This document shows, piece after piece, positions 12,986 through 32,895 of a stretch of DNA of 64,000 bases; position 1 is the first letter of the stretch, and each line of letters starts with the position of its first letter. Both the position numbers and the translations under genes were made by a program. Origin of the DNA: a virus; the IMG/VR virus record IMGVR_UViG_3300035698_014170, positions 1 through 64,000 of that record, one strand, 5' to 3'. The notes under the pieces are model-generated. The model did not search any database and was not told the DNA's origin. It saw nothing but the letters and a program-made list of their open reading frames with translations.

Positions 12986-14488
12986 ATGGACAATTTAATT
13001 AGTAAAATGTTAGACGATAGTGACGAACTTCAGGACAAGTTAGTAGAATGTCGGGGTATAGAAGAAGGCATTGTATCGAACACAGACGAAGATTCTGAAG
13101 AAGTAGCTATTAAGAAACTGACAGAAGAAGAAACAGAATTTGAGACTAACACAGACACAGAAGCAGATATGTCCGGCGATGTAAACGCAGAAGCCGAAGA
13201 AGATCATAGTGAAGAGGGCGAAGAAGTAGATAAAGAGTACTTCGGTAAATCAGGAGACACCTATTACTATTTAATAGGCAATGAATCTGACAGCGGTGTA
13301 GTAGAAGATCTTCAAATCGTTGACCAAGAAGGCGAAGTAGTTTATAGTGCTAAAGATAATGAAGCAGAGATAACCAATGTAGTTGATTTCATTATCCAAG
13401 CAATACAAGAAATGGACATAGAAGATATATCTTATGATGTGTTTGAAAAATACATTATGCCTAAGTTAGTTGAGCCAGAAGAAGAGGAAGAAGAGTTTAG
13501 CGAAGATGAGTTCGGCGAAGAAAATGAAGAAGATATGATACCTGACGAAGAGGATACGTTCGAATCAATTAGTAGGACTAAGTATGTTTACAAAGATAAA
13601 GATTACGAAGTTGCTTTGCTTCCTGAGAACAAAGTTCGAGTAGGCGGAAAGATATTTACTTTATCAGAAGATACATTAAGTTTTTATAATATTAAAGAGA
13701 GTAAAGTAAACTTTGAAAGTTTACGCGATCTTGCTAAGGATATGTTAAGAGCGATGGACGAAAGTGAATTAAAGGAATTAAAAGAAGGTTACGAAGAAGC
13801 AGGTGTAAGAGATGGAACTGGTCCTAACAAACGTTCGCCTCGAAAAGGCATGGGTAGAAGAAAAGCAGCTGGGGAGACTTGTCCTGCTGAGGTAGACGAA
13901 GAGGGTTATAATCCTTCTGGAGTAGGTTCAAATGTTTGTAGTAAGTGCGGCGCTAAAATAGGCGAACCAAAAGATGGAATATCTGTTTGTCCTAACTGCG
14001 GTAATAAAAATAGAATGCTTGGCAAGAATGAATCAAAAACCAACGAAGGTTTTGAAAGTATCGAAGCAGCCGAAAAATTTTTAAATGTTAATGGTTTAAA
14101 GCGTGCAGAAAATACCACGGAAGAACAAATAATGGAAGCTGCTTACAGTATTAGAAAACTTCAAAACACTTTTATTGAAAAAAAGGAAGCAAATATGAAG
14201 AAAACAAATGAAGATATCACAACTGATGTAAAAGACCTTCAGAAGAAAGCAGAAGCAGCGGTCAAAGACGGCGATTATACGAAAGCAGCAGATTATGTTA
14301 GCCGACTTGCTAATGTTGAATCGTCTGTAGGAACAGTTGAAGATGAGTCAGCTGTCGTAGAGCCAATTGCAGATGAAGCACCTGAAGCATCTGAAGAAGA
14401 TGTAGTTGAAGAGGAAGAAGTAGCAGAGGATGTAAAAGAACAAGTAGACTTCTTAGACACATTACTAGAAGAAGGTATGAATAGATAA
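12986..14488 (+). CDS. Acidic prohead core/scaffold-like protein with zinc ribbon and RDGTGP motif
   Basis: Very acidic; many xxE/S sites (NESKTNE, KTNE); directly upstream of protease. Confidence 0.6.
   Translation: MDNLISKMLDDSDELQDKLVECRGIEEGIVSNTDEDSEEVAIKKLTEEETEFETNTDTEADMSGDVNAEAEEDHSEEGEEVDKEYFGKSGDTYYYLIGNESDSGVVEDLQIVDQEGEVVYSAKDNEAEITNVVDFIIQAIQEMDIEDISYDVFEKYIMPKLVEPEEEEEEFSEDEFGEENEEDMIPDEEDTFESISRTKYVYKDKDYEVALLPENKVRVGGKIFTLSEDTLSFYNIKESKVNFESLRDLAKDMLRAMDESELKELKEGYEEAGVRDGTGPNKRSPRKGMGRRKAAGETCPAEVDEEGYNPSGVGSNVCSKCGAKIGEPKDGISVCPNCGNKNRMLGKNESKTNEGFESIEAAEKFLNVNGLKRAENTTEEQIMEAAYSIRKLQNTFIEKKEANMKKTNEDITTDVKDLQKKAEAAVKDGDYTKAADYVSRLANVESSVGTVEDESAVVEPIADEAPEASEEDVVEEEEVAEDVKEQVDFLDTLLEEGMNR
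13064..13126 (+). repeat. 63-nt direct repeat, copy 2
   Basis: Matches 9983-10045. Confidence 0.9.
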
Positions 14489-14636: not shown

Positions 14637-16721
14637 ATGTTATTATCAGAAACAACGTTTACTAAAGGAAAAATAGTTGAAAGTGCACAACAGGAATTGC
14701 CTAAAGGTGTTCTTTGTAGAGTAATATATCCAATTTGTAATATTGGGGAGAAGAATCAGAATAATAGAATATACGAAAAGGATCTTTGGGAAAGAGTTAT
14801 TTCCGAAGACCGTGTGATAAGAGTCATGGCGGAAAGAACTTTGTTCGGACAAGCGGAGCACCCTGAAGAGACTCAATCCGATCTTCAATTAACATCTCAT
14901 ATTATTACAAAGACTTGGATAGACGAAAGTGCTAATAAAGTATACCAGGAGATGGACGTACTTAATACGCCTTGTGGTAAGATAATTAACACATTATTAG
15001 AAGCAGGTTGTTTAGTCGGTGTAAGTACAAGAGCAGAAGGCGAGTTAGAAGAAGTTACTGAGGGCAATGAAACTCATTATAAAGTATTGTCTGAGTCTTA
15101 TAATTATGTAACGACTGACTTCACTGCCGATCCAAGTACATTTAATGTTAAGCCAGTTAAGTATGAATCAAACGTAGTACAAGAAATTAAACAAGGTTTG
15201 AAGTCTAAGAAACTTGATAAACATTTTGCAACAGTATTACTTGAATCTATGAAGAGTAAAGAAGCAAAAGCAGTACTCGAATCAATTGGCAAAATAGATG
15301 GGGCTATAAATACCCCAGGAGATAAGAATAACGCAGTACACGGGTTGTCAGAAGGCCTAATTGGGAAGCTAATCCGCATTAAAGAAGGTAAATATAAAGG
15401 TTCTTACGGAGAAGTTAAATCAATCAACGAAGAGGATGTAACAGTCACTTTATCGAACGGTGCAGAGATTATTACTAATACAAATCGTATCGATATGGAT
15501 GCAGTTCAGATTAATACAACTCAAGCAAGCGGAGGCGATACAGTTGAGCCTTTAGAGATTGAGGCAGAAATAACTCCAGCAGAACCACTTGAGGATATGG
15601 GCGACGGCGAGATGGAAGGTCCTGAGGCATTAGAAGACGAGATGCTTAGTGAACCTGAGGATATAACTTTCGAATCTAAAGAAGCTGGTGATAAACCAAA
15701 TTGGCCTAAAGAAGAGCAGTCAGATAAAGAAGAAGAAGAAGATCTTCAAGACGAAGCAGACGCTAAAGATTATAAAGAAACAGATGAATCTAAAACTAAC
15801 GAAGTATTAGAATACAGTATTAACTATAAGAATTCTGCTGGTGAGTCTAATATTTTTGATAAAACAGTCCGGGCTGCTAATACAATCGAAGCCGCAGATA
15901 AAGCACAGTTACTTATTGGAGAAGATAATAAGATTGTTTCTCTAAATGTAGTTGCTTCTGAGAAAGTAAACGAAGTAGAGTTTGACGGACGATATGGAGA
16001 CGACGTATTAGATGATACTAACGATGGTTTGGATCATAGTAAGGACGAAGAAGCAGTTGAGAAAACTGAATCCATTACAAGCACTATTCGCGATCTTAGA
16101 ATTTCCGAAGCTGGTATAAGAGCAGAACGTGAGAAGGCAATCGAACTATTAGAATCTGCAGAGAAGTCTTTAAAAGATGTAGATAGCTCGAAAGCACTTG
16201 AATTCAAAATGCTTAGCACTAGATTAAAAGAAGCGCAATCAAAAGATTCTGTTGAAATAAAAGCTCTTTGTAAAAAGCTAGAAGAGAAAACTTCTGTCAT
16301 TAATAAAGTGAAGAAGCAAGTAGAAGGGTTGAAAGCTTCTTATAATGTCGATTTGCTTAAGATAAAAGAGCAAGTACAGTCTCATAAAAAAGATGTACTA
16401 AAGGTAACTGAGGCTTATAAAGTTAAAATAGCTAAAGAAGAAAAGTTACTCGACGAAAAATATAGACACAAATTTATTAAGAATTATGTAGCAATAAAAT
16501 TAGAATCAACTGGATGTAATCCTCACAGTTCTACTCGGGCACTTCTCGAGAAGAAGAAGACAGTAAAAGAAGTCGATGAAACTTTTGACGAAGTTCTCGA
16601 TGTAATGCGTCAGAATGCACTTCATTCCCGCAAGTTAACAGAAATTATTGTCAATAAGAATGAGAAGATAGATCCAGAAATTAAACGGATTGAAAACAAT
16701 ATAAACGGATTAAACTTTTAA
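14637..16721 (+). CDS. Prohead protease (T4 gp21-like) fused to scaffold-like coiled coil
   Basis: NQNNRIY, GQAEHP, SHII, LNTPCGKII, GVSTRAEG, DFTADPS motifs; KOW-like insert; long C-terminal coiled coil. Confidence 0.9.
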   Translation: MLLSETTFTKGKIVESAQQELPKGVLCRVIYPICNIGEKNQNNRIYEKDLWERVISEDRVIRVMAERTLFGQAEHPEETQSDLQLTSHIITKTWIDESANKVYQEMDVLNTPCGKIINTLLEAGCLVGVSTRAEGELEEVTEGNETHYKVLSESYNYVTTDFTADPSTFNVKPVKYESNVVQEIKQGLKSKKLDKHFATVLLESMKSKEAKAVLESIGKIDGAINTPGDKNNAVHGLSEGLIGKLIRIKEGKYKGSYGEVKSINEEDVTVTLSNGAEIITNTNRIDMDAVQINTTQASGGDTVEPLEIEAEITPAEPLEDMGDGEMEGPEALEDEMLSEPEDITFESKEAGDKPNWPKEEQSDKEEEEDLQDEADAKDYKETDESKTNEVLEYSINYKNSAGESNIFDKTVRAANTIEAADKAQLLIGEDNKIVSLNVVASEKVNEVEFDGRYGDDVLDDTNDGLDHSKDEEAVEKTESITSTIRDLRISEAGIRAEREKAIELLESAEKSLKDVDSSKALEFKMLSTRLKEAQSKDSVEIKALCKKLEEKTSVINKVKKQVEGLKASYNVDLLKIKEQVQSHKKDVLKVTEAYKVKIAKEEKLLDEKYRHKFIKNYVAIKLESTGCNPHSSTRALLEKKKTVKEVDETFDEVLDVMRQNALHSRKLTEIIVNKNEKIDPEIKRIENNINGLNF
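15300..15361 (+). repeat. Dispersed ~62-bp element, copy 2 (in frame in protease linker)
   Basis: GGGGCTATAAATACCCC...AATAACGCAGTACACGGGTTGTCAGA. Confidence 0.8.
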
Positions 16722-16742: not shown

Positions 16743-18269
16743 ATGAAATCTGGTATGAAAAATCTTGTTGAGAAGAGATTAGCTCAGATCAACGGTCGCC
16801 AGACTCAGCTTGCTGAGAATTGGTCACCTTACATTAACGCTGTAGATAAATATATGCAAAGTTCTCGTAACCGTAGTCTTACTATTTACGAGAGACAAGT
16901 TATTGGTCAGTGTTTAGAAAATGCTCTAGATGAGCACGGACTTCGTAAAGGTAAAATGTTTGAAGCAACAGACGAAGGCGATATTTCGTTTTTAGGCGTA
17001 CAGCTTCCAGTTATTGCAGCCATGCTTCCAACTCTTGTAATGAACGATATTGCAATCGTTCAGGCAATGGATCGTAGAACTGCTTCTTTGTTCTACTTCG
17101 ACGCATTGTATGGTAGTGATAAAGGTGCTATTGAAAGTGGCGATACGATGTTAAGCGCACGTACTGGTCACGATCGTACTACTTCGGGTCGTCGTTATGC
17201 GATGGCAATGGTAGAAGACGAAACTTTGTCAGATGCAGCCGGCGATGCCGATGTTTATACTGGCACAGTAGACTATGCACCTGGTGTTAAACGTGGCACA
17301 GTTGTTGTAAAAGACAGTGACGGAAATGAAATTGCTAGTGATAGAGCAACAGATGGCATTATCGCAGCAACAGACTCTTCTGGTGTTACAGGTACTATTA
17401 CTGCTGCTGGTGATTACAGTATTGATTTTAGTACATATAGTTTAGGTTCAGGTCTTGGTGCTGTTATTAGTTATCAGTATCAGTATGATTTGCCTTATGA
17501 TAGTGATTGTTGTGATTATAAGGGTGTTCCGGAAGTAAACTTCCAGGTAACGCAGGCTAATCTTGAAGCCATTGATTTTCCAATTCGTTCTAAATATTCT
17601 ATTGGTGCAAGTATTGATCTGCTTAAAGCACACGGAATAAATTTAGAGACAGAAATTGTAAAATATCTTGGCGGCGAGTGTAAGTTCACAATCGATCATT
17701 ACGGTATTGATTTAATTAATACTGCTGCTGAAGATGGAATTTATATTCCTAATGCTGCAGGAACTGATGTTCTTCGTAATCCGGCTGCTTCTATTACACA
17801 GTGGGACGCAGACGTAGGTAGCGGTGAGCCTTGGTTGTGGAAAAAGCATGAGATAATTGACCGCTTTGAAGAAGGTTCAAATAATATATTTGCAGCATCG
17901 TTGAGAGGCGTTGCCACTTATATTATTGCAGGTAACTCAGTTGCAAGAGTTATTAAACAGCTTCCTAACTTTAAGCCAAGTGCAATGCCAAAGGTTCCGA
18001 CTGGTCCTATGAATATAGGTACGCTTGACGGTAGAACTGTTATTCAGGATCCGTTCTTAACATCAACTCGTTATGTTATGGGTTACAAAGGCGACAACTT
18101 CCTTACCGGTAGTTTTGCTTATTGTCCATATATTCCGTTGTTTGCAAGTCCGACTCTTGTTACTTCTGATCTTTATGCTCAGAAGGGTTTCTTAAGTAGT
18201 GCTGGTTTCAAGGTTACCAACCCTGCGTTGTTAACTTATGGTACTATTACTGGAACTTATTTTGGATAA
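16743..18269 (+). CDS. Major capsid protein, T4 gp23-like
   Basis: CLEN, MFE-AT maturation site, DIAIVQAM, FYFD, DLLKAHGINLETEI, GYKG, AYCPYIP motifs. Confidence 0.95.
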   Translation: MKSGMKNLVEKRLAQINGRQTQLAENWSPYINAVDKYMQSSRNRSLTIYERQVIGQCLENALDEHGLRKGKMFEATDEGDISFLGVQLPVIAAMLPTLVMNDIAIVQAMDRRTASLFYFDALYGSDKGAIESGDTMLSARTGHDRTTSGRRYAMAMVEDETLSDAAGDADVYTGTVDYAPGVKRGTVVVKDSDGNEIASDRATDGIIAATDSSGVTGTITAAGDYSIDFSTYSLGSGLGAVISYQYQYDLPYDSDCCDYKGVPEVNFQVTQANLEAIDFPIRSKYSIGASIDLLKAHGINLETEIVKYLGGECKFTIDHYGIDLINTAAEDGIYIPNAAGTDVLRNPAASITQWDADVGSGEPWLWKKHEIIDRFEEGSNNIFAASLRGVATYIIAGNSVARVIKQLPNFKPSAMPKVPTGPMNIGTLDGRTVIQDPFLTSTRYVMGYKGDNFLTGSFAYCPYIPLFASPTLVTSDLYAQKGFLSSAGFKVTNPALLTYGTITGTYFG

Positions 18270-22830: not shown

Positions 22831-24030
22831 ATGAACGAATTCGAATACGTATTAGAATCCTTAAAAACAGCTAGAGAAAAGTATCTCAATACTGGAAAGA
22901 TTTCTAAGGATTACTTTGGTTATTTATTAGAACAAGATCCTTCTAAAAATAAAAAATATCTCGAATGGATGTGTAAACAAATAGTTGACGGATATAACAG
23001 ACTCGAACATCTTAAAGATACAATACAATACTTCGATACCCTTGTTAATAAGAATAAGATTAAAGAAAAAGATATTAATTATTACAAATCTGTAGAAGAC
23101 GTTGAAGAAGTAATAGCAGATGTTAAGGATAAGCTTTCAAAAACAGAAGTTAAGAAATCTGTTAAATTAAAAGAAGCTGATAAAGTATATGAAGACGATA
23201 GATTAGTTGTTATAAATCCTCATACGCATAAAGCTGCTCAGTTATACGGCAAAGGAACTCAGTGGTGTATAACATCCGAAGACGATCATTATTGGGTTGA
23301 GTATACATTACAAGAAGGAGTTGAATTTTATTATGTTATATTTAAAAAGGACGTTGAAGGAGCTAGTTGGCCGAGTACTTTATCTGCTGAATTTAGTAAA
23401 GGCGATAAATTTGCAATAGCTTTATTTCAATCAGAAAATAATGTAGAAGTTTACGATGCAGAAGATAAAAAAATAGATATAATGGCTGGTAAGACAGGTT
23501 CATTTAATCCAATACGAGAAGTTGCTCAGATGTTTGATATACCTGAAGATATACTCGTACCTAAGGATTTAAATGATTGGTTAGACGAAAAACTGGAAAA
23601 GGGACTTGAAGGTCTTGAGGAATATGTAATTGACCAGTTAAAGTATAATTATCAGTTACAATCGACAGCGGAAATTGATCAGGAGAGTTATGAAGAATAT
23701 GGTTCATTAGTCGATTCAAGTTCAGGCGAAATTATCCCTTACTTATTTCTAAAAACGGAACTTACAGATAATGATTTTGAGGATATGGCATCAGGGATTA
23801 TAAGTTGGGCGTCGGATGAAGGTTTAGTTGAAGAAGTATACGATGCAGAAGATATTTCTGACATGCTCTTTATAGATAGTGTGGCTATAACAACAGCTGT
23901 TCAGGAACTTAACTACGGAAGTACGTCACTTCCGGAAAGTGAAGAACGAAAACGAATGGATATCGAAGGTCAGCAAAAGATGGAATTTGCAAAAGAAAGT
24001 ATTGCTATAATCGAAAGTATAGGTTATTAA
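22831..24030 (+). CDS. PcfJ-like domain protein with N-terminal leader
   Basis: DPSKNKKYLEW, KDINYY, KVYEDD..VVINPHT..AAQLYGKGTQWCIT. Confidence 0.65.
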   Translation: MNEFEYVLESLKTAREKYLNTGKISKDYFGYLLEQDPSKNKKYLEWMCKQIVDGYNRLEHLKDTIQYFDTLVNKNKIKEKDINYYKSVEDVEEVIADVKDKLSKTEVKKSVKLKEADKVYEDDRLVVINPHTHKAAQLYGKGTQWCITSEDDHYWVEYTLQEGVEFYYVIFKKDVEGASWPSTLSAEFSKGDKFAIALFQSENNVEVYDAEDKKIDIMAGKTGSFNPIREVAQMFDIPEDILVPKDLNDWLDEKLEKGLEGLEEYVIDQLKYNYQLQSTAEIDQESYEEYGSLVDSSSGEIIPYLFLKTELTDNDFEDMASGIISWASDEGLVEEVYDAEDISDMLFIDSVAITTAVQELNYGSTSLPESEERKRMDIEGQQKMEFAKESIAIIESIGY

Positions 24031-26935
24031 TGAACGAATTATTCGAACAAATATTATTAGAAACCGACTATAAGGGCGTAGTCCGCAAGCAAAGATCTAT
24101 CAATCGTTTGTTTCCTGATTGGAGTGATAAGGTTAAAGGAATTGCTAAGATGGGCGGACTTCGTATGAAGTCTTCTAATGAAACGGAATGGTATTTTAAA
24201 ATACATAGTGGCACAACAGCAGGTAAAACATACGATGTTCATCTTCAATTTAAGAATGTTCAGAATTATTATCCAAGCATGTTAAGGATAGAAGGCTTTG
24301 GGTTAAGGATAAAAGTAGAATTGATCGTAGAAAACTTGCAAAGAAGATGCTTTATAACGTAGATATTGCATTCGATTGTTCTTGCCCAGCATTCCAATAT
24401 TGGGGCGGTGCTTATATTACTTCTCTTCCTAAGTACGCAGCAAAATATGGAGATGCAGAAACCAGGGCTCCTAATGTTAGGAACCCAAAACAATATGGAA
24501 TGGTGTGTAAACACCTTCAGAATCTGATAAACGTACTTCCTTTTTATGAAAGTACTATGGCACAGTGGCTTACTCAATTTTATGACAAGCAGATAACTGA
24601 GATAGAAGCAAAAGCTAAAGAGGAGTATGGTTCGTTCAAAGCAGCTGGAGCTGAATTAGGTAAAAGAAAAGAAGAACCTGCTGAGCCAGAAGTTAAAGTA
24701 AAAGAACCTGGTAAAACAATGCGTACTAGTATTGTTAAGAATAAATTAAAAGATAAGGGATTAATAGATAGGATAGTAAAAGAAGGCGTAGAAGATAGAC
24801 TGGGAAACTGCTATCCGTTATCAGGAAGATATGTTCAAGCTCATCTTGATGCTATATTAGTACATGGTTCAATTAATGGTATAAGGTTTACGGGAAAAGA
24901 TTTAGACAATCCTCATGCATGGGTTGAAGAAGGCGACGAAGTATATGATCCAGTTTGGGATAAAAGACTTCCTAAAGAAGCCTATTATGGGATAATGCAG
25001 GCTAAAGTAATTAAGAAATACACGGACGAAGAAGCAGCCTTAAAAATGATTAGATCTCAACATTGGGGTCCTTGGGATGATATAAAAGAAGCTTGGCAAA
25101 AAGTAGGAAGAAAAACTTATAGCAATCAAGTAGGTAAATATTTAATAACTTTACGACCAGATCGTCCTACAGCAAAAATGCCTTGGGGAAAATCTTATTC
25201 TATATTTGTAGCAGAGGTTTGGCCAGGCGAAAAGAATGTTTGGAAAAAAGTTGAGAACTTTATGAGTGTAGGTTCTCTTACTCAAGCCAAAAAGAAATCC
25301 GAAGAATGGTTAGTAAGTAACGGGTTAAACGAAGATTTAAATTTTCGTGATACAACGGATATCCCTCATTATGATAGTATGATTAAGAATCCTGAGTATT
25401 TCAAAAAAGAAAAAGGAGCAGAATTTGAGATAGTAGAAATGTCTCCTAATGATTATCTTTCTATAGTTATAGACGGAATGTGGGCTGGGTCTGCTAATCT
25501 TCGAAGAGATTATAAAAACGATAAAAGTATTTTTACAAGAATATTATTAAAAGGTAGACTTAGAGATATTAGAAAATACGCTAAAGAATTTTGGAGTACT
25601 GTTTCTGACGTTCATATGCCCTTTCTAGATTTCGGAGTATCTAATTGGCTTTCACAAGAAGGACTTCATCGAGCAATAGTAGCTAGAAAACAGAATATTT
25701 CTACAATGCCTGTTTTAATTGTTTTTACTAACGTTTCCAAAAAAGAAATAGTTAAAAGGTTTCCAAAATTAGGAAAGTACGTTACGAACGAAAGTATAAT
25801 AAAAGAGGCTTTTGAATATAGTTGTGGTTGGATTACTCCGCAAGGAGAGTATGAAGGCATAGGTAGATTGAGTCATAGTGATTTCGCAGAGCTGTATATG
25901 GAAGAAAAAGGGATTTCCTACTCAGTAGACGATGAACTTACTATTTTCGGTAAGGTTTCCAGATATATTCGAGTTACAGCATCCAAGGATTCTTTCAGTG
26001 AAATAAACTTTGAAATTATATCTCCCAAGGTTACTGTAGCCCAATTATTAACTATACAGGAAAAAGCTGTAAACTATGAATCAGTTTATTGGGAGGATAT
26101 AATTAGTAGGGAGTATGGAGAAGATTTAAAAACATTCGTTATTTATATACGAAATACATATTTAAACGAAAGTATAATAAAAGAGACAAGAAGGCAAGAA
26201 TTGTGGATTAGTAAAGGTATTTACGGCTCTAATATAGATCCAGCTATAAAAACAGCTTCTGTGGAAGAAGTAGCTCGTACAGCTGGAGAATGGGCTGGAC
26301 GCGAATGGCGTAGAAGAACTGCTTTAATAAAAAACGGAGAAAGTGTAAATCCTACATGGGGCGATCCTGATAGTAGGGTATCTTGGTCTGACATAATTGC
26401 ACAGCTCGACGAGGCCGGCGTGACAAAACGTCCTGAAATACAAAAAGCTTTGAAACCTTTAGGCGGAAGAATTAGAGAACTTTCTCAACCTGTTTTTAAT
26501 AAAGCTAAGAAAAATGCTAACGAAAGTATAATAAAAGAGGACGCAGCAGAAGCTACTGCTTTTGCAAAAGAAGTTATGATAGCTCTTGAAGCTAATGACG
26601 ACGCAGCTTTAGAAAAAGCATTAGGATTTGAACCTGGCGAAGAAGAAGCGGTTATGTCAAAAGCAGATAGTTTAGTTAAGGATTTAAATGGAATGATTGC
26701 TAATAATAAAAGTTTACAAGAAAGTAACGCTTTTCAGATTGTCTCTTATAACTCTTTAGGAGAATTAACTATTTTATCTTCTAAAGGCGTAAGATATCTT
26801 ATTAGTAAAGTTAATCCTTTTGTTCATAAAAAAATTAAAATGTATCTTAGTCATAAAAATTATGGTCCTGCTTGGCAGATGTTTAATAAATTTCCTGTAG
26901 AGAGACTTGAAAATGAGAACAGTAAAACTAGATAA
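24030..26935 (+). CDS. Polyvalent polyprotein: SWIM Zn finger, papain/transglutaminase-like, ParB/Srx-like, GWITPxG, KTSC-like modules; one-base indel near 24260 joins the two tracked ORFs
   Basis: CSCPAF..CKH; GNCY..LVHG..HAWVE..YDP; QEGLHRA..MPV; three NESIIKE linkers; downstream frame open from about 24260. Confidence 0.75.
25787..26539 (+). repeat. Three exact 21-nt repeats AACGAAAGTATAATAAAAGAG (NESIIKE) at 25787, 26165, 26519
   Basis: Direct reading; all in frame; separated by unrelated sequence. Confidence 0.95.
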
Positions 26936-30831: not shown

Positions 30832-32895
30832 ATGAGCAATAGTGAAATTAATCCAGTTGATTTATTTGAATGTCTTGTAAATGATAACGGCATCAAAGTT
30901 TTTACCGAAGGCAAAGCAGAAATTGAAAATTCACTAGACCGGTTAGCTAAAGTTTCTGGTACAGAATTGTCAGATATTTGGTTAGTCGAAGTAGCAGGTA
31001 AGAAAGTTCCCGAAAGTAGACTAGACGTAATCGACGATATAATGCATTCTAAATACAGTGCAGAATACGACAGTTATCTTAAAGGCGAAACTGGGTTAGC
31101 AGAAAGAAAAAATCGTTTCAAAAACTTAAGAATATCTGAAGCAGGATACAACAAAGGCGATACTGTTAAAGTCGTTAAAGATAGTGAATGGGGTCAATGG
31201 CTTGTCAAATATTATGAAAATGGTAAATATTCAGAAGATAAGACATCTTATCACGATGATAAAGAAGATGCAGAAGGAACAGCAGAGTTTACTCGTAAGA
31301 AAATTGCTACTGCTAACGAATCTACAGAATCAGAAGAAACAGCTCCTGCTGAATTAATTGAAGAACCAGAATTAGACTCTGAAGATGTATCAATGGAAGA
31401 CGGGGAAAAAACTCCTGATAAGAAAAAACAAGATGGTATGGACGAAGTGTCTGATAAAGAGTTGGAGCAACTTATTGATAAGAAAAACGAATCTACTGAT
31501 TCGATGGATAATAGATTACAGAAAATGTTTACTGAGGATAAAATAGAAATTCTTCAAAAGAAAATTGATCGATTAAATGCTCAAGCAAAAGAAACAGATA
31601 GCCAGCAACAAGGTACTAGAAAATCAAGTCGAGGCTACGGACTTCAAAATATGTACGGAGAGATAGATAAAGCAGAAAAGGAAATTGCTGTTCTAAAAAA
31701 AAGATTAGGAGAATCTATTAACGAATCTGTGCAAGAATTAATAGGAGAAGTATCTGGTATAACACAGTTTGAACAGAAGATATTGAATTGGGCAATTGAA
31801 AACAATGTGATAGATAACGAATTTCCTTCTTATAATGACATGATGTATGCAATTTCTCGTCATCCTAAAGCAGAAAAACAATCGTTGTCTTCTATAGGCG
31901 ATAACGAAGTTCGATTAGCCGATAACGCGGACGTATCAGGAATGTATTTAAGATATATTTTAATGCCTAAAGCAAAAGAAGCTTTTAAACACAGTTACTC
32001 AGATACCGAATCTTGGTTTGATGTAGATAAAGAAGGCAATCCTACTAAAGAATCTTTACATATTTGCAACGATTGTAGTAAGACGTTTAGGAGTAAACTT
32101 TCTGAGTGTACGCATTGTAAATCAAAAAACGTAGAAAAAATAGTAGAAGAAATATCAGATCAACTAGCCTTAGGTACAAAGATTGAAATGGAACATACGG
32201 ACGACAAAGAAGAAGCTGCTAAAATAGCAATTGACCATATTCAAGAAGATCCTGATTATTATACAAAACTTAAAAAGATGGAAGCTGGCGGTTGTGACGA
32301 ATCTAAAGTAAACGAATTTGACGACAATAAAGACGGATATACAGTAATTGCAAAAGGTATAGCAGATAAAGATTCAGCAGATGAACTTGCTAATACTCAT
32401 CAAGCCACTGTTATACAAGACGAAGAAGATGAAAAGAAGTTCGCTGTAATCAAAAAGACAGACGAATCTAAAGTAAACGAAGACACTCGTAATACTGTGA
32501 TTACAGCTTTTGATCCACATGGTTATAGTTTATCGGCTGAAGAAATAGATAAAGATACAGGCACTAGAACTCTTACTCTATCAAAAGGCGCCGAAGAATT
32601 AAAAATACAGATTATGCCTACTCAATCAGACGCATACGAAAGCAAAGTAAAGGAACGTGATCAAGGTAGTCCTCTTAATACTAATAAAATAGATTGGGGA
32701 GATAAGGAAGAGGTTCGAGAACTTTTCGTTGAGAATTTTGGCGAAGATTTTGATCCTGCTAATCTAGTAACAGTAGAAGACAACGATGTTAAAACAGCTG
32801 TATATATAGATTACAGTGGAAGAGTTGAATATTACTTTGTTTATTGGAACACTAATTATAATGATCTTCCTACTATTAAGAAGATAAATTTTTAA
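30832..32895 (+). CDS. Second modular polyprotein incl. DUF5661-like domain and zinc ribbon
   Basis: LGTKIEMEHT...IAIDHIQEDPDYYTKL; CNDC..CTHC; linkers ESINES, DESKVNE x2, YESKVKE. Confidence 0.7.
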   Translation: MSNSEINPVDLFECLVNDNGIKVFTEGKAEIENSLDRLAKVSGTELSDIWLVEVAGKKVPESRLDVIDDIMHSKYSAEYDSYLKGETGLAERKNRFKNLRISEAGYNKGDTVKVVKDSEWGQWLVKYYENGKYSEDKTSYHDDKEDAEGTAEFTRKKIATANESTESEETAPAELIEEPELDSEDVSMEDGEKTPDKKKQDGMDEVSDKELEQLIDKKNESTDSMDNRLQKMFTEDKIEILQKKIDRLNAQAKETDSQQQGTRKSSRGYGLQNMYGEIDKAEKEIAVLKKRLGESINESVQELIGEVSGITQFEQKILNWAIENNVIDNEFPSYNDMMYAISRHPKAEKQSLSSIGDNEVRLADNADVSGMYLRYILMPKAKEAFKHSYSDTESWFDVDKEGNPTKESLHICNDCSKTFRSKLSECTHCKSKNVEKIVEEISDQLALGTKIEMEHTDDKEEAAKIAIDHIQEDPDYYTKLKKMEAGGCDESKVNEFDDNKDGYTVIAKGIADKDSADELANTHQATVIQDEEDEKKFAVIKKTDESKVNEDTRNTVITAFDPHGYSLSAEEIDKDTGTRTLTLSKGAEELKIQIMPTQSDAYESKVKERDQGSPLNTNKIDWGDKEEVRELFVENFGEDFDPANLVTVEDNDVKTAVYIDYSGRVEYYFVYWNTNYNDLPTIKKINF
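32296..32481 (+). repeat. Two exact 21-nt repeats GACGAATCTAAAGTAAACGAA (DESKVNE) at 32296 and 32461
   Basis: Direct reading. Confidence 0.95.

What the first reader, a model, noticed from the sequence alone, without database searches (positions are those of the whole stretch)
24030..26935. Polyprotein of unrelated effector modules joined by identical DNA-encoded protease-site linkers
Seen: after repairing one base near 24260 the gene encodes about 970 aa: leader MNELFEQILLE, SWIM finger domain, then modules bounded by IVKE, IKE, LNE, NESIIKE x3 and LQE: a papain/transglutaminase-like domain (C..H..HAWVE..YDP), an unknown domain, a ParB/Srx-like domain (QEGLHRA), a GWITPQG domain, two unknowns and a KTSC-like tail. 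The three NESIIKE linkers are the exact 21-mer AACGAAAGTATAATAAAAGAG (25787, 26165, 26519) with no synonymous change while the 110-120 codons between them are unrelated. Established: T4 gp21 cleaves after Glu in (I/L)xE sites of head proteins; polyvalent proteins exist in phages. Inference: a cassette-like cargo array packaged as one chain, cut by the prohead protease into separate enzymes for injection, with the linker DNA acting as a recombination joint for gain, loss and shuffling of modules.
Basis: partly seen in the sequence, partly recalled or inferred. Interest (0 to 1): 0.88.

Follow-up and report, generated by a model that had tools for sequence, protein, structure and literature searches.

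The report
Phage cargo polyprotein with protease linkers
An uncultured phage with a T4-type head encodes one long chain of eight unrelated small protein modules joined by a short tag that fits the cutting rule of its own head protease, so the chain is probably packed into the capsid and cut into separate proteins, though no cut has been measured.

Summary
Window 24030-26935 is one gene of about 968 codons, broken by one missing base at 24261-24265. The 21-mer occurs exactly three times, and the modules between the copies are unrelated.

The chain has three parts: an 11-residue leader ending LLE, a conserved SWIM-type domain, and seven cargo modules. All seven module edges, set independently from where homologues start and stop aligning, lie within 5 residues of an [ILV]-x-Glu.

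The family is large (1830 metagenomic hits) and sits in a fixed slot of a T4-like head gene block. Cargo length varies from 200 to 1943 residues. Relatives carry Tad3, a 2H phosphoesterase, SLT lysozyme, ParB_N and DUF5662 as cargo. The joint ES-(0-2 residues)-[ILVMF]-x-E is about fourfold enriched in relatives. The three closest relatives differ from the window by whole modules, with edges at the joints.

I read this as head-packaged cargo cut by the phage's S77 protease (confidence about 0.6). Cutting, packaging and injection are all unmeasured. The KTSC call is not supported. The recombination-joint idea is plausible but has no direct support. This scan has already reported the same theme on other DNA (at least 18 genomes). 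I found no paper describing it.

The parts
24030..24062 (+). Leader MNELFEQILLE, ending L-L-E. Candidate capsid-targeting and cleavage propeptide.
   Evidence: All 78 of 78 N-terminal SWIM-type relatives have [ILV]xE in the leader. In 76 of 78 the Glu lies exactly 7 residues before the RKQ motif. Five neighbouring genes have similar leaders.
24261..24265 (+). Frame break: one base missing (CAG|GAA) relative to intact relatives.
   Evidence: The site is not covered by any laid contig, so a sequencing error and a real mutation cannot be told apart.
24063..24784 (+). Conserved SWIM-type domain (CxC at 24377, CxH at 24506), a long helix and a charged spacer ending IVKE.
   Evidence: 1830 hits, most on this part. 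AF2 model of relative P0001: pLDDT 92-98 over residues 11-210. BFVD matches include proteins named SWIM-type. ZSWIM8 Z 5.4 is weak. Pfam SWIM E 0.26 in the window.
24785..25090 (+). Module 2: papain/transglutaminase-like fold with conserved Cys, His and Asp. Ends DIKE.
   Evidence: 21 homologue alignments start at q161-184 and end at q251-292, medians 176 and 276. Stand-alone proteins of 100-118 aa exist. Invariant C9, H44, D55. pLDDT 71-96. Best fold rows: LapG Z 6.5, TglA 6.0, SpvD 5.1, staphopain 5.0.
25091..25333 (+). Module 3: small four-strand-plus-helix domain, function unknown. Ends GLNE.
   Evidence: Aligns to P0001 residues 263-342. In the P0001 model: strands 274-315 and helix 321-334, pLDDT 63-73. 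Only weak fold rows, Z up to 5.4.
25334..25807 (+). Module 4: ParB/Srx-like candidate (QEGLHRA). Ends NESIIKE.
   Evidence: Homologue alignments span q354-520. pLDDT 86-96 over model residues 190-335, dropping at the linker. Weak fold rows: PadC, sulfiredoxin, Osa. No Pfam or PDB sequence match.
25787..25807 (+). Exact 21-mer linker, copy 1 (NESIIKE).
   Evidence: Bridged by a Logan contig covering 25752-25988.
25808..26185 (+). Module 5 (GWITPQG), function unknown. Ends NESIIKE.
   Evidence: Aligns to P0006 residues 234-364 (q518-647, E 2e-16) and to P0011. Similar W-x-x-x-x-G modules recur in relatives. One weak lead to small viral proteins from the atlas. Low pLDDT.
26165..26185 (+). Exact 21-mer linker, copy 2.
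26186..26539 (+). Module 6, function unknown. Ends NESIIKE.
   Evidence: The stand-alone 113-aa protein P0116 aligns over q645-753 and starts and ends where the module does. No PDB sequence match below E 0.5.
26519..26539 (+). Exact 21-mer linker, copy 3.
   Evidence: Bridged by a Logan contig covering 26468-26618.
26540..26722 (+). Module 7: acidic helical segment ending SLQE.
   Evidence: Shared with P0002 (q757-893) and in part with P0040. One X1 contig stops resembling the window at 26721 and runs on unlike it.
26723..26935 (+). Module 8: C-terminal three-strand-plus-helix domain with the stop codon. Shared by many relatives.
   Evidence: Alignments start at q819-824 in P0001, P0004 and P0036. 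No KTSC or other Pfam match.
14637..16721 (+). Prohead protease (S77, T4 gp21 type), the proposed cutting enzyme.
   Evidence: PF03420, 41.6 bits against a cut-off of 27; phrog_207 E 4.1e-31.
16962..16964 (+). Glu74 of the gp23-like capsid protein (KMFE|A), the likely propeptide cut.
   Evidence: Glu is invariant in 16 of 16 clade capsid proteins, with I/L/V/M two residues before it. The T4 gp23 propeptide is 65 residues (PMC9026906, passages read).

Best explanation
The gene encodes a head-internal cargo polyprotein.

Proposed mechanism:
1. A short N-terminal leader and/or the conserved SWIM-type domain take the chain into the prohead core. This is how the capsid targeting sequences of T4 internal proteins work.
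2. The phage's own S77 (gp21-type) prohead protease then cuts after Glu in [ILV]-x-E. The cuts fall after the leader and at the seven joints.
3. This releases the SWIM domain and seven small proteins of 61-158 residues. They stay in the capsid and enter the cell with the DNA.
4. Some cargo is enzymatic or anti-defence in kind.
5. The joints also mark where modules are gained and lost between relatives.

Shown here: modular build, joint motif, edge coincidence, synteny, module gain and loss.
Inferred: head targeting, cutting, retention, injection and recombination at the joint DNA.
For: 1. Enzyme and setting. The window has an S77 protease, a gp23-type capsid protein and a T4-type portal. In 20 of 25 related IMG/VR loci the gene sits between homologues of window genes 21770 and 27978, downstream of protease and capsid genes.

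2. Cutting rule. T4 gp21 cuts after Glu in L/I-x-E, and 10-19-residue propeptides target proteins to the core (PMC9026906, passages). The clade's capsid protein has an invariant Glu with I/L/V/M at P3 in 16 of 16 sequences, at residue 74 in the window.

3. Leader. 78 of 78 N-terminal relatives carry [ILV]xE in the leader. Window genes 22831, 27978, 30832, 33217 and 33835 start with similar leaders.

4. Edges. The 893-residue translation has 18 [ILV]xE sites. Seven lie within 5 residues of the seven module edges defined by homologue alignments. None of 20,000 random placements of seven edges did as well. Stand-alone homologues begin and end at the edges.

5. Joint motif in relatives. ES + 0-2 residues + [ILVMF]-x-E occurs 78 times in 150 relatives, against 18.1 in shuffles (maximum 30 of 200). 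P1' is mostly Ala or Ser. Pfam-defined SLT (P0036) and DUF5662 (P0007) domains are each flanked by such joints on both sides.

6. Cargo kinds in relatives: Tad3 (P0076, E 1.1e-33), 2H phosphoesterase (P0083), SLT, ParB_N, DUF5662.

7. Module gain and loss. P0001 lacks modules 2, 4, 5 and 6. P0002 joins ParB directly to module 7 through one ESSIIKE. P0040 joins module 3 to the second half of module 7 through NESIINE.

8. Leader and linker are interchangeable. The stand-alone ParB module P0053 has its own leader MFDELLEQLRE|A.
Against: - No cut, packaging or injection has been measured, and there is no cultured relative. tblastn against 50,697 phage records found only the papain-like module, in phage Barnyard.
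- Plain [ILV]xE is not enriched in relatives (922 against 991 in shuffles). Only the ES-prefixed form is enriched.
- Four of the seven window joints (IVKE, DIKE, GLNE, SLQE) and the capsid site KMFE lack the ES prefix.
- The leader Glu sits at a fixed distance from RKQ. It could therefore be structural.
- The gene is frameshifted in this contig, and the site could not be checked in reads.
- Five of the seven cargo modules were modelled at low confidence.
- All PDB fold matches are below the level the tool calls reliable.
- P0002 and P0040 come from contigs of 1236 and 1654 bases and may be cut.
- The chain carries its own papain-like module, which could do the cutting.
Confidence: 0.6

Rival explanations
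1. Uncut polyvalent protein. The chain acts as one multidomain protein, packaged or not. The ES..E stretches are merely favoured flexible linkers.
For: Polyvalent phage proteins with 2-15 domains are described (PMC5512222, abstract and passages). Model confidence drops at the ends of the two confidently modelled modules, where the joints lie, as for any linker.
Against: A neutral linker need not keep Glu with I/V/L at P3 and Ala/Ser after it across 150 relatives. It also need not mirror the N-terminal leaders or the invariant capsid Glu. Stand-alone modules carry leaders of the same form.
Confidence: 0.15
2. Self-processing. The papain-like module 2 cuts the joints in cis or trans, as proposed for the peptidase domains of polyvalent proteins.
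For: Module 2 has conserved Cys, His and Asp and papain-like fold rows. Iyer et al. propose internal peptidase domains that release the other domains (PMC5512222, passages).
Against: Relatives without this module keep the same joints: P0001, P0036, P0051, P0057 and P0064. The module also occurs as a stand-alone protein of 100-118 aa.
Confidence: 0.08
3. Not head cargo. The SWIM protein is a neck, tail or non-virion late protein, and the joints are cut by another protease or serve another role.
For: PHROG 1722, labelled 'tail protein', matches residues 6-60 (E 1.1e-6). The gene lies between head and tail genes. The SWIM fold gives no functional match.
Against: The PHROG label is untested and the match covers only the zinc-finger stretch. 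The leader form and the Glu rule fit the head protease.
Confidence: 0.07
4. Dead gene in this genome. The frameshift is real and the chain is not made in full. This does not exclude any of the readings above for intact relatives.
For: One base is missing at 24261-24265. There is no canonical slippery heptamer at the site (read from the sequence).
Against: The 862 codons downstream remain open and 60-62% identical to relatives. Cover in the public runs is thin, at depth 2-3 per contig, so a base-calling or assembly error is at least as likely.
Confidence: 0.1

Closest known systems
T4 internal proteins IPI-III and Alt: capsid targeting sequence plus gp21 processing (PMC9026906, passages read)
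   Same: Short N-terminal propeptide ending hydrophobic-x-Glu. A gp21-type protease is encoded nearby. The cargo is variable and non-essential in appearance and includes anti-defence functions. T4 IPI is tabulated as a Type IV restriction enzyme inhibitor and described as blocking restriction cleavage of the T4 genome (PMC9026906 passages).
   Different: T4 cargo proteins are separate small genes, each with its own leader. Here up to seven unrelated modules hang on one conserved SWIM-type domain and are separated by internal sites. No sequence similarity to the T4 proteins was seen.
phiKZ and SPN3US head and ejection proteins cut at several sites by a gp21 homologue (PMC9026906 passages; PMC7411985 and PMC10052503 seen in the search listing with abstract starts only)
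   Same: Many internal head proteins are cut after Glu in a short motif, some at several sites, and the products are ejected.
   Different: Those are not described, in what I read, as chains of unrelated portable modules with one repeated joint. Jumbo-phage genomes; no SWIM anchor.
Polyvalent proteins of phages and conjugative elements (Iyer et al. 2017, PMC5512222, abstract and passages)
   Same: Several unrelated effector domains sit in one phage polypeptide near virion genes and are proposed to be released by proteolysis. ParB-like, 2H and lysozyme domains are listed there as phage-type components.
   Different: Release there is ascribed to an internal zincin-like peptidase domain. No such domain or LPD family was matched here. 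Here the joints fit the head protease.
Phage P1 Dar proteins (DarA, DarB, DdrB), as summarised in PMC5512222 (passages); PMC12810830 seen in the search listing only
   Same: Head-packaged, proteolytically processed anti-restriction cargo.
   Different: Separate large proteins loaded in a set order. No repeated joint.
MuF-domain polymorphic toxins of temperate phages
   Same: A conserved head-associated N-terminal domain with a variable C-terminal cargo.
   Different: One cargo domain per protein. No protease-type joints.

Membership tests
T4-type capsid-targeted, gp21-processed internal head proteins (a functional class) | The phage encodes a gp21/S77 prohead protease. | tested here: met
   PF03420, 41.6 bits (cut-off 27); phrog_207 E 4.1e-31.
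T4-type capsid-targeted, gp21-processed internal head proteins (a functional class) | Short N-terminal propeptide ending L/I-x-Glu. | tested here: met
   MNELFEQILLE. 78 of 78 relatives carry the equivalent.
T4-type capsid-targeted, gp21-processed internal head proteins (a functional class) | The protein is present in the prohead or virion and is cut by the protease. | not testable with these tools
   Needs virion proteomics or co-expression.
Polyvalent proteins (Iyer et al. 2017) | Two or more unrelated effector-type domains in one phage polypeptide near virion genes. | tested here: met
Polyvalent proteins (Iyer et al. 2017) | Signature domains of that set (zincin-like MPTase, LPD families, DarB-type dyad). 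| tested here: not met
   No such Pfam family in the window protein or among 115 relatives. The paper's own supplementary alignments were not seen.
SWIM zinc finger (PF04434) | CxC...CxH pattern and a match to the family model. | tested here: inconclusive
   The pattern is present. Pfam E 0.26, 11.3 bits against a cut-off of 19.6, in the window. 1 of 115 relatives at E 8.1e-4. BFVD matches named SWIM-type. ZSWIM8 Z 5.4, rmsd 3.6, 96 residues aligned.
Papain/transglutaminase-like cysteine peptidase fold | Conserved Cys, His and Asp on a papain-like fold. | tested here: inconclusive
   C9, H44 and D55 are invariant in 8 of 8 sequences. Most of the top 20 VIA rows, and all of the first 19, align to this module. 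Many are cysteine peptidases or transglutaminase-like enzymes, but the best is Z 6.5 (LapG, rmsd 3.2, 84 aligned), under the tool's reliable level. No Pfam match.
ParB/Srx fold | Match to a ParB_N or Srx model or fold. | tested here: inconclusive
   Foldseek PadC E 0.13, sulfiredoxin E 0.24, Osa E 0.65. VIA Osa Z 4.0 over model residues 181-334. No Pfam or PDB sequence match. The ParB_N match in relative P0101 is in a module not shown to be homologous.
KTSC domain (PF13619; accession recalled) | Match to the family model. | tested here: not met
   No KTSC match for the tail or for P0040 at E up to 10, nor among 115 relatives at E up to 0.001. The fold was not tested on its own.

The most novel reading that the evidence does not exclude
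The joints are a cassette system at two levels. As peptide, each is the head-protease cut site. As DNA, the 7-codon stretch ending in the Glu codon is a short homology at which modules are swapped, lost and gained. Phages of this clade would then reshuffle a capsid-delivered set of first-minute effectors (Tad3, 2H, SLT, ParB-like and many unknown folds), rather as integrons reshuffle gene cassettes. The unknown modules would be a catalogue of new injected anti-defence proteins.
Probability: 0.3. Interest if true: 0.8.

Novelty: new variant of a known kind. Interest (0 to 1): 0.62.

Why it matters
If the reading holds, a simple sequence rule marks proteins that a large uncultured phage clade delivers with its DNA. 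The rule is a leader or ES..[ILV]xE joint next to a gp21-type head gene block. Those proteins are where first-minute counter-defence would be expected, and one relative already carries a Thoeris inhibitor domain. Dozens of unknown small modules would become candidates for function tests. It would also extend the T4 capsid-targeting principle from single proteins to polyproteins. That has a practical use for loading foreign proteins into capsids.

Tried and rejected
Searches that gave nothing:
- blastn of the gene against 50,697 phage records: no match.
- First IMG/VR scan with the single protein: no relative.
- PDB sequence searches with the whole protein, module 6 and the ParB module: nothing below E 0.5.
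- Word-based protein searches: only 7 and 2 hits, so they added little.
- Exact 21-mer: 0 matches in IMG/VR and 2 in JGI metagenomes. One lies in a ribonucleotide reductase gene of a 476-kb contig and one in a 30-codon frame. Both look like chance, so there is no outside copy of the joint DNA.

Read laying:
- Cover was thin and patchy. No true contig covers 24142-24334, so the frameshift could not be checked.
- No joint-skipping record was seen.
- The runs are labelled salt lake metagenome. X1 holds 0.38 of the sampled words, and 11 of its 14 laid contigs are at least 99% alike. It may be the source sample, so I draw no habitat conclusion beyond that.

Readings rejected:
- Internal promoters or translation starts at the 21-mers. 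The sigma-70 scan found 12 sites against 11.1 expected, none at a linker. No consistent start codon follows the copies. The second gene's 21-mer has no TATAAT.
- Tandem duplication as the source of the repeats. The modules are unrelated.
- A programmed -1 frameshift. There is no slippery heptamer, and the 78 relatives that carry the N-terminal part read straight through.

Other notes:
- The atlas lead for module 5 (small viral proteins, with Amidoligase_2 on 16-32% of members; score 0.91, recognition 1563) is too weak to use.
- No literature search found a description of this architecture.
- Supplementary files of PMC5512222 (domain alignments) were not opened and could hold some of these modules.


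Full report
WHAT IS THERE

The window is the first 64 kb of a single 87,340-base contig with 33.6% G+C. It carries a T4-type portal (PF07230), an S77 gp21-type prohead protease fused to KOW motifs, and a gp23-type capsid protein. The capsid protein is at most 28.9% identical to that of any of 1933 matching cultured-phage records.

The finding's gene is two ORFs one base out of register: 24030-24362 and 24347-26935. The second frame is open from 24254. Intact relatives read straight through. One base is therefore missing at 24261-24265, and the whole gene has 968 codons.

The 21-mer is exact at 25787, 26165 and 26519 and occurs nowhere else, even with three mismatches allowed. Its flanks are no more alike than random AT-rich DNA, and the modules between the copies share no similarity. 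With this genome's codon usage, three independent copies of NESIIKE would share all codons with P = 1.2e-4. Contigs from public runs bridge copies 1 and 3. The repeats are therefore unlikely to be an artefact of one assembly, with the caveat that these runs may include the window's source sample.

THE FAMILY

A full HMMER search of 1.84 billion representatives gave 1830 hits at E up to 0.001. Most hits cover only the first 150 or so residues of the frame-B translation. That region sits about 80 residues into proteins of 101 to 2325 residues. This conserved part contains CxC...CxH.

In relative P0001 it folds with pLDDT 92-98 over residues 11-210. It matches uncharacterised phage proteins in BFVD, some named SWIM-type. 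There is no convincing PDB match. The best row for this domain is ZSWIM8 at Z 5.4, which is weak.

In 20 of 25 related IMG/VR loci the gene lies between homologues of window genes 21770 and 27978, downstream of protease and capsid genes. Its length there ranges from 200 to 1943 residues. The picture is a conserved anchor in a fixed slot of the structural block, with a hypervariable tail.

MODULES AND EDGES

I aligned the 150 best hits and 25 locus ORFs back to the window protein.
- 21 alignments to the papain-like module have median start q176 and median end q276.
- The ParB-like module spans q354-520.
- Module 5 spans q518-647.
- Module 6 spans q645-753 and matches a stand-alone 113-residue protein end to end.
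- The C-terminal domain starts at q819-824.

The protein has only 18 [ILV]xE sites. Seven of them (IVKE, DIKE, GLNE, ESIIKE three times, SLQE) lie within 5 residues of the seven edges. None of 20,000 random placements of seven edges matched that.

In the 716-residue model the two well-supported modules are confident: pLDDT 71-96 for the papain-like module and 86-96 for the ParB-like module. Confidence falls at the linkers. The other five modules had shallow alignments and low confidence.

WHAT THE MODULES ARE

Module 2 has invariant Cys, His and Asp. Its fold rows are dominated by papain/transglutaminase-like enzymes: LapG Z 6.5, TglA 6.0, SpvD 5.1, staphopain C 5.0, PeiW 5.0. All are under the level the tool regards as safe.

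Module 4 gives only weak ParB/Srx rows: PadC, sulfiredoxin and Osa.

The tail is not KTSC by Pfam. Modules 3, 5, 6 and 7 remain unknown.

Relatives show what else rides on the anchor. Among 115 scanned:
- inteins in 11
- DUF5662 in 4
- Tad3 in 1 (P0076 residues 714-820, E 1.1e-33)
- SLT in 1 (P0036)
- a 2H phosphoesterase in 1 (P0083; its Acb1 score is below cut-off)
- ParB_N in 1 (P0101)
The domain of window gene 22831 is fused to the chain in P0004 and P0025.

THE JOINT

In 150 relatives the pattern ES + 0-2 residues + [ILVMF]-x-E occurs 78 times against 18.1 in shuffles (maximum 30 of 200). Within it:
- ES[ILV]xE occurs 37 times against 4.8.
- ES.[ILV].E occurs 22 times against 4.6.
- Plain [ILV]xE is not enriched (922 against 991).
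- P3 is I, then V, then L. P1' is mostly A or S.

In P0036 and P0007 the Pfam-defined SLT and DUF5662 domains are bracketed by such joints.

In the window's genome ES.[ILV].E occurs 8 times against 1.9 expected. The copies are confined to the scaffold-like gene 12986, this gene, and gene 30832.

All 78 relatives that start with the anchor have [ILV]xE in a short leader. In 76 of them the Glu is 7 residues before RKQ.

The clade's capsid protein has an invariant Glu with I/L/V/M at P3 in 16 of 16 sequences. It falls at residue 74, just before the conserved core. This is comparable to the 65-residue T4 gp23 propeptide. It also fits the L/I-x-E rule of gp21 (PMC9026906, passages).

GAIN AND LOSS OF MODULES

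The three closest relatives differ from the window by whole modules.
- P0001: anchor, module 3, a short piece, tail.
- P0002: ParB module, one ESSIIKE, module 7, tail. The 8 joint residues align to both window copies.
- P0040: end of module 3, NESIINE, second half of module 7, tail.
P0002 and P0040 come from short contigs.

More distant relatives place the papain-like module last (L002, L004, P0005, P0007) or put modules in front of the anchor (L005, P0021).

Exact DNA repeats at joints recur:
- a second window gene has its own 21-mer twice (32296 and 32461, DESKVNE)
- L005/L010 share 27 bases (SLAAQFHES)
- L014 has 54 bases
- L017 has 15 bases
In the other five locus ORFs with repeats, four had low-complexity acidic tracts and one (L019) a 16-base match away from any joint (25 ORFs examined).

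One X1 contig follows the window up to 26721, one base short of the SLQE Glu codon end, and then runs on unlike it. This is a single low-depth record and only a hint.

READING

The simplest account is T4-style head cargo extended to a polyprotein. The leader and/or anchor take the chain into the prohead core. The S77 protease cuts after the leader and at the joints. The pieces stay with the DNA and are injected. I put this at about 0.6. Every functional step is inferred.

Rivals:
- an uncut polyvalent protein
- self-processing by module 2, which is weakened because relatives without module 2 keep the joints
- a role outside the head
- a dead gene in this genome

The DNA-level claim, that the joint is a recombination site, fits the codon identity and the module indels. 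The 21-mer was not found beside other modules elsewhere, so the claim stays open.

KNOWN OR NEW

The components are known:
- T4 capsid targeting sequences and gp21 specificity (PMC9026906)
- multi-site processing in phiKZ-like phages (same review)
- polyvalent phage proteins released by an internal peptidase (PMC5512222)

I found no paper describing a SWIM-anchored cargo chain with head-protease-type joints. No cultured phage carries the anchor by tblastn.

Earlier follow-ups of this scan reported the same theme in other genomes: 19 findings in at least 18 genomes hold the search words. One reports ESL[K/N/D]E linkers. Those are unchecked AI notes and I did not use them as support. The notes on this genome repeat what I had already seen.

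Noticed in passing
window 30832-32895: A second polyprotein-like gene with its own exact 21-mer twice (32296 and 32461, DESKVNE) and a third near-copy (ESKVKE). It has a DUF5661 match and a leader ending LFE.
   Followed up: partly
window 22831, 27978, 30832, 33217, 33835: Five further genes around the finding start with short leaders ending hydrophobic-x-Glu (MNEFEYVLE, ..IHLKE, ..DLFE, MLELLEQLIKE, ..IKIQE). Gene 33217 has an SLT-like motif. Relatives fuse the 22831 domain and an SLT domain to the SWIM chain.
   Followed up: partly
relatives L014, L017, L020, L023, L024 and 11 of 115 representative proteins: Inteins, some with HNH or LAGLIDADG endonucleases, interrupt the SWIM domain at or next to its zinc-binding Cys residues, just before the CKH in several. 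This suggests the anchor is an essential, strongly conserved gene.
   Followed up: partly
window 16962-16964 (capsid protein Glu74): Invariant Glu with I/L/V/M at P3 in 16 of 16 clade capsid proteins, just before the conserved core. Likely the propeptide cleavage site.
   Followed up: yes
window 12986-14488: Acidic scaffold-like protein upstream of the protease carries two ES.[ILV].E sites (DESELKE, DESAVVE) and a Cys-rich ribbon.
   Followed up: no
relatives P0018/L005, P0021, P0051, P0057, L014, L017: A module of about 120 residues with F/W-W-L-L-x-D/N-G-x-x-I/V-P-V near its start and ..L.Y.L.YG near its end is the commonest cargo, often in 2-4 copies per chain. Function unknown. Window module 5 (GWITPQG) may be a distant member.
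   Followed up: no
L081 (JGI contig Ga0316206_1000015): The same 21-mer, also coding NESIIKE, sits inside a ribonucleotide reductase gene of an unrelated 476-kb contig. Taken as a chance match.
   Followed up: yes
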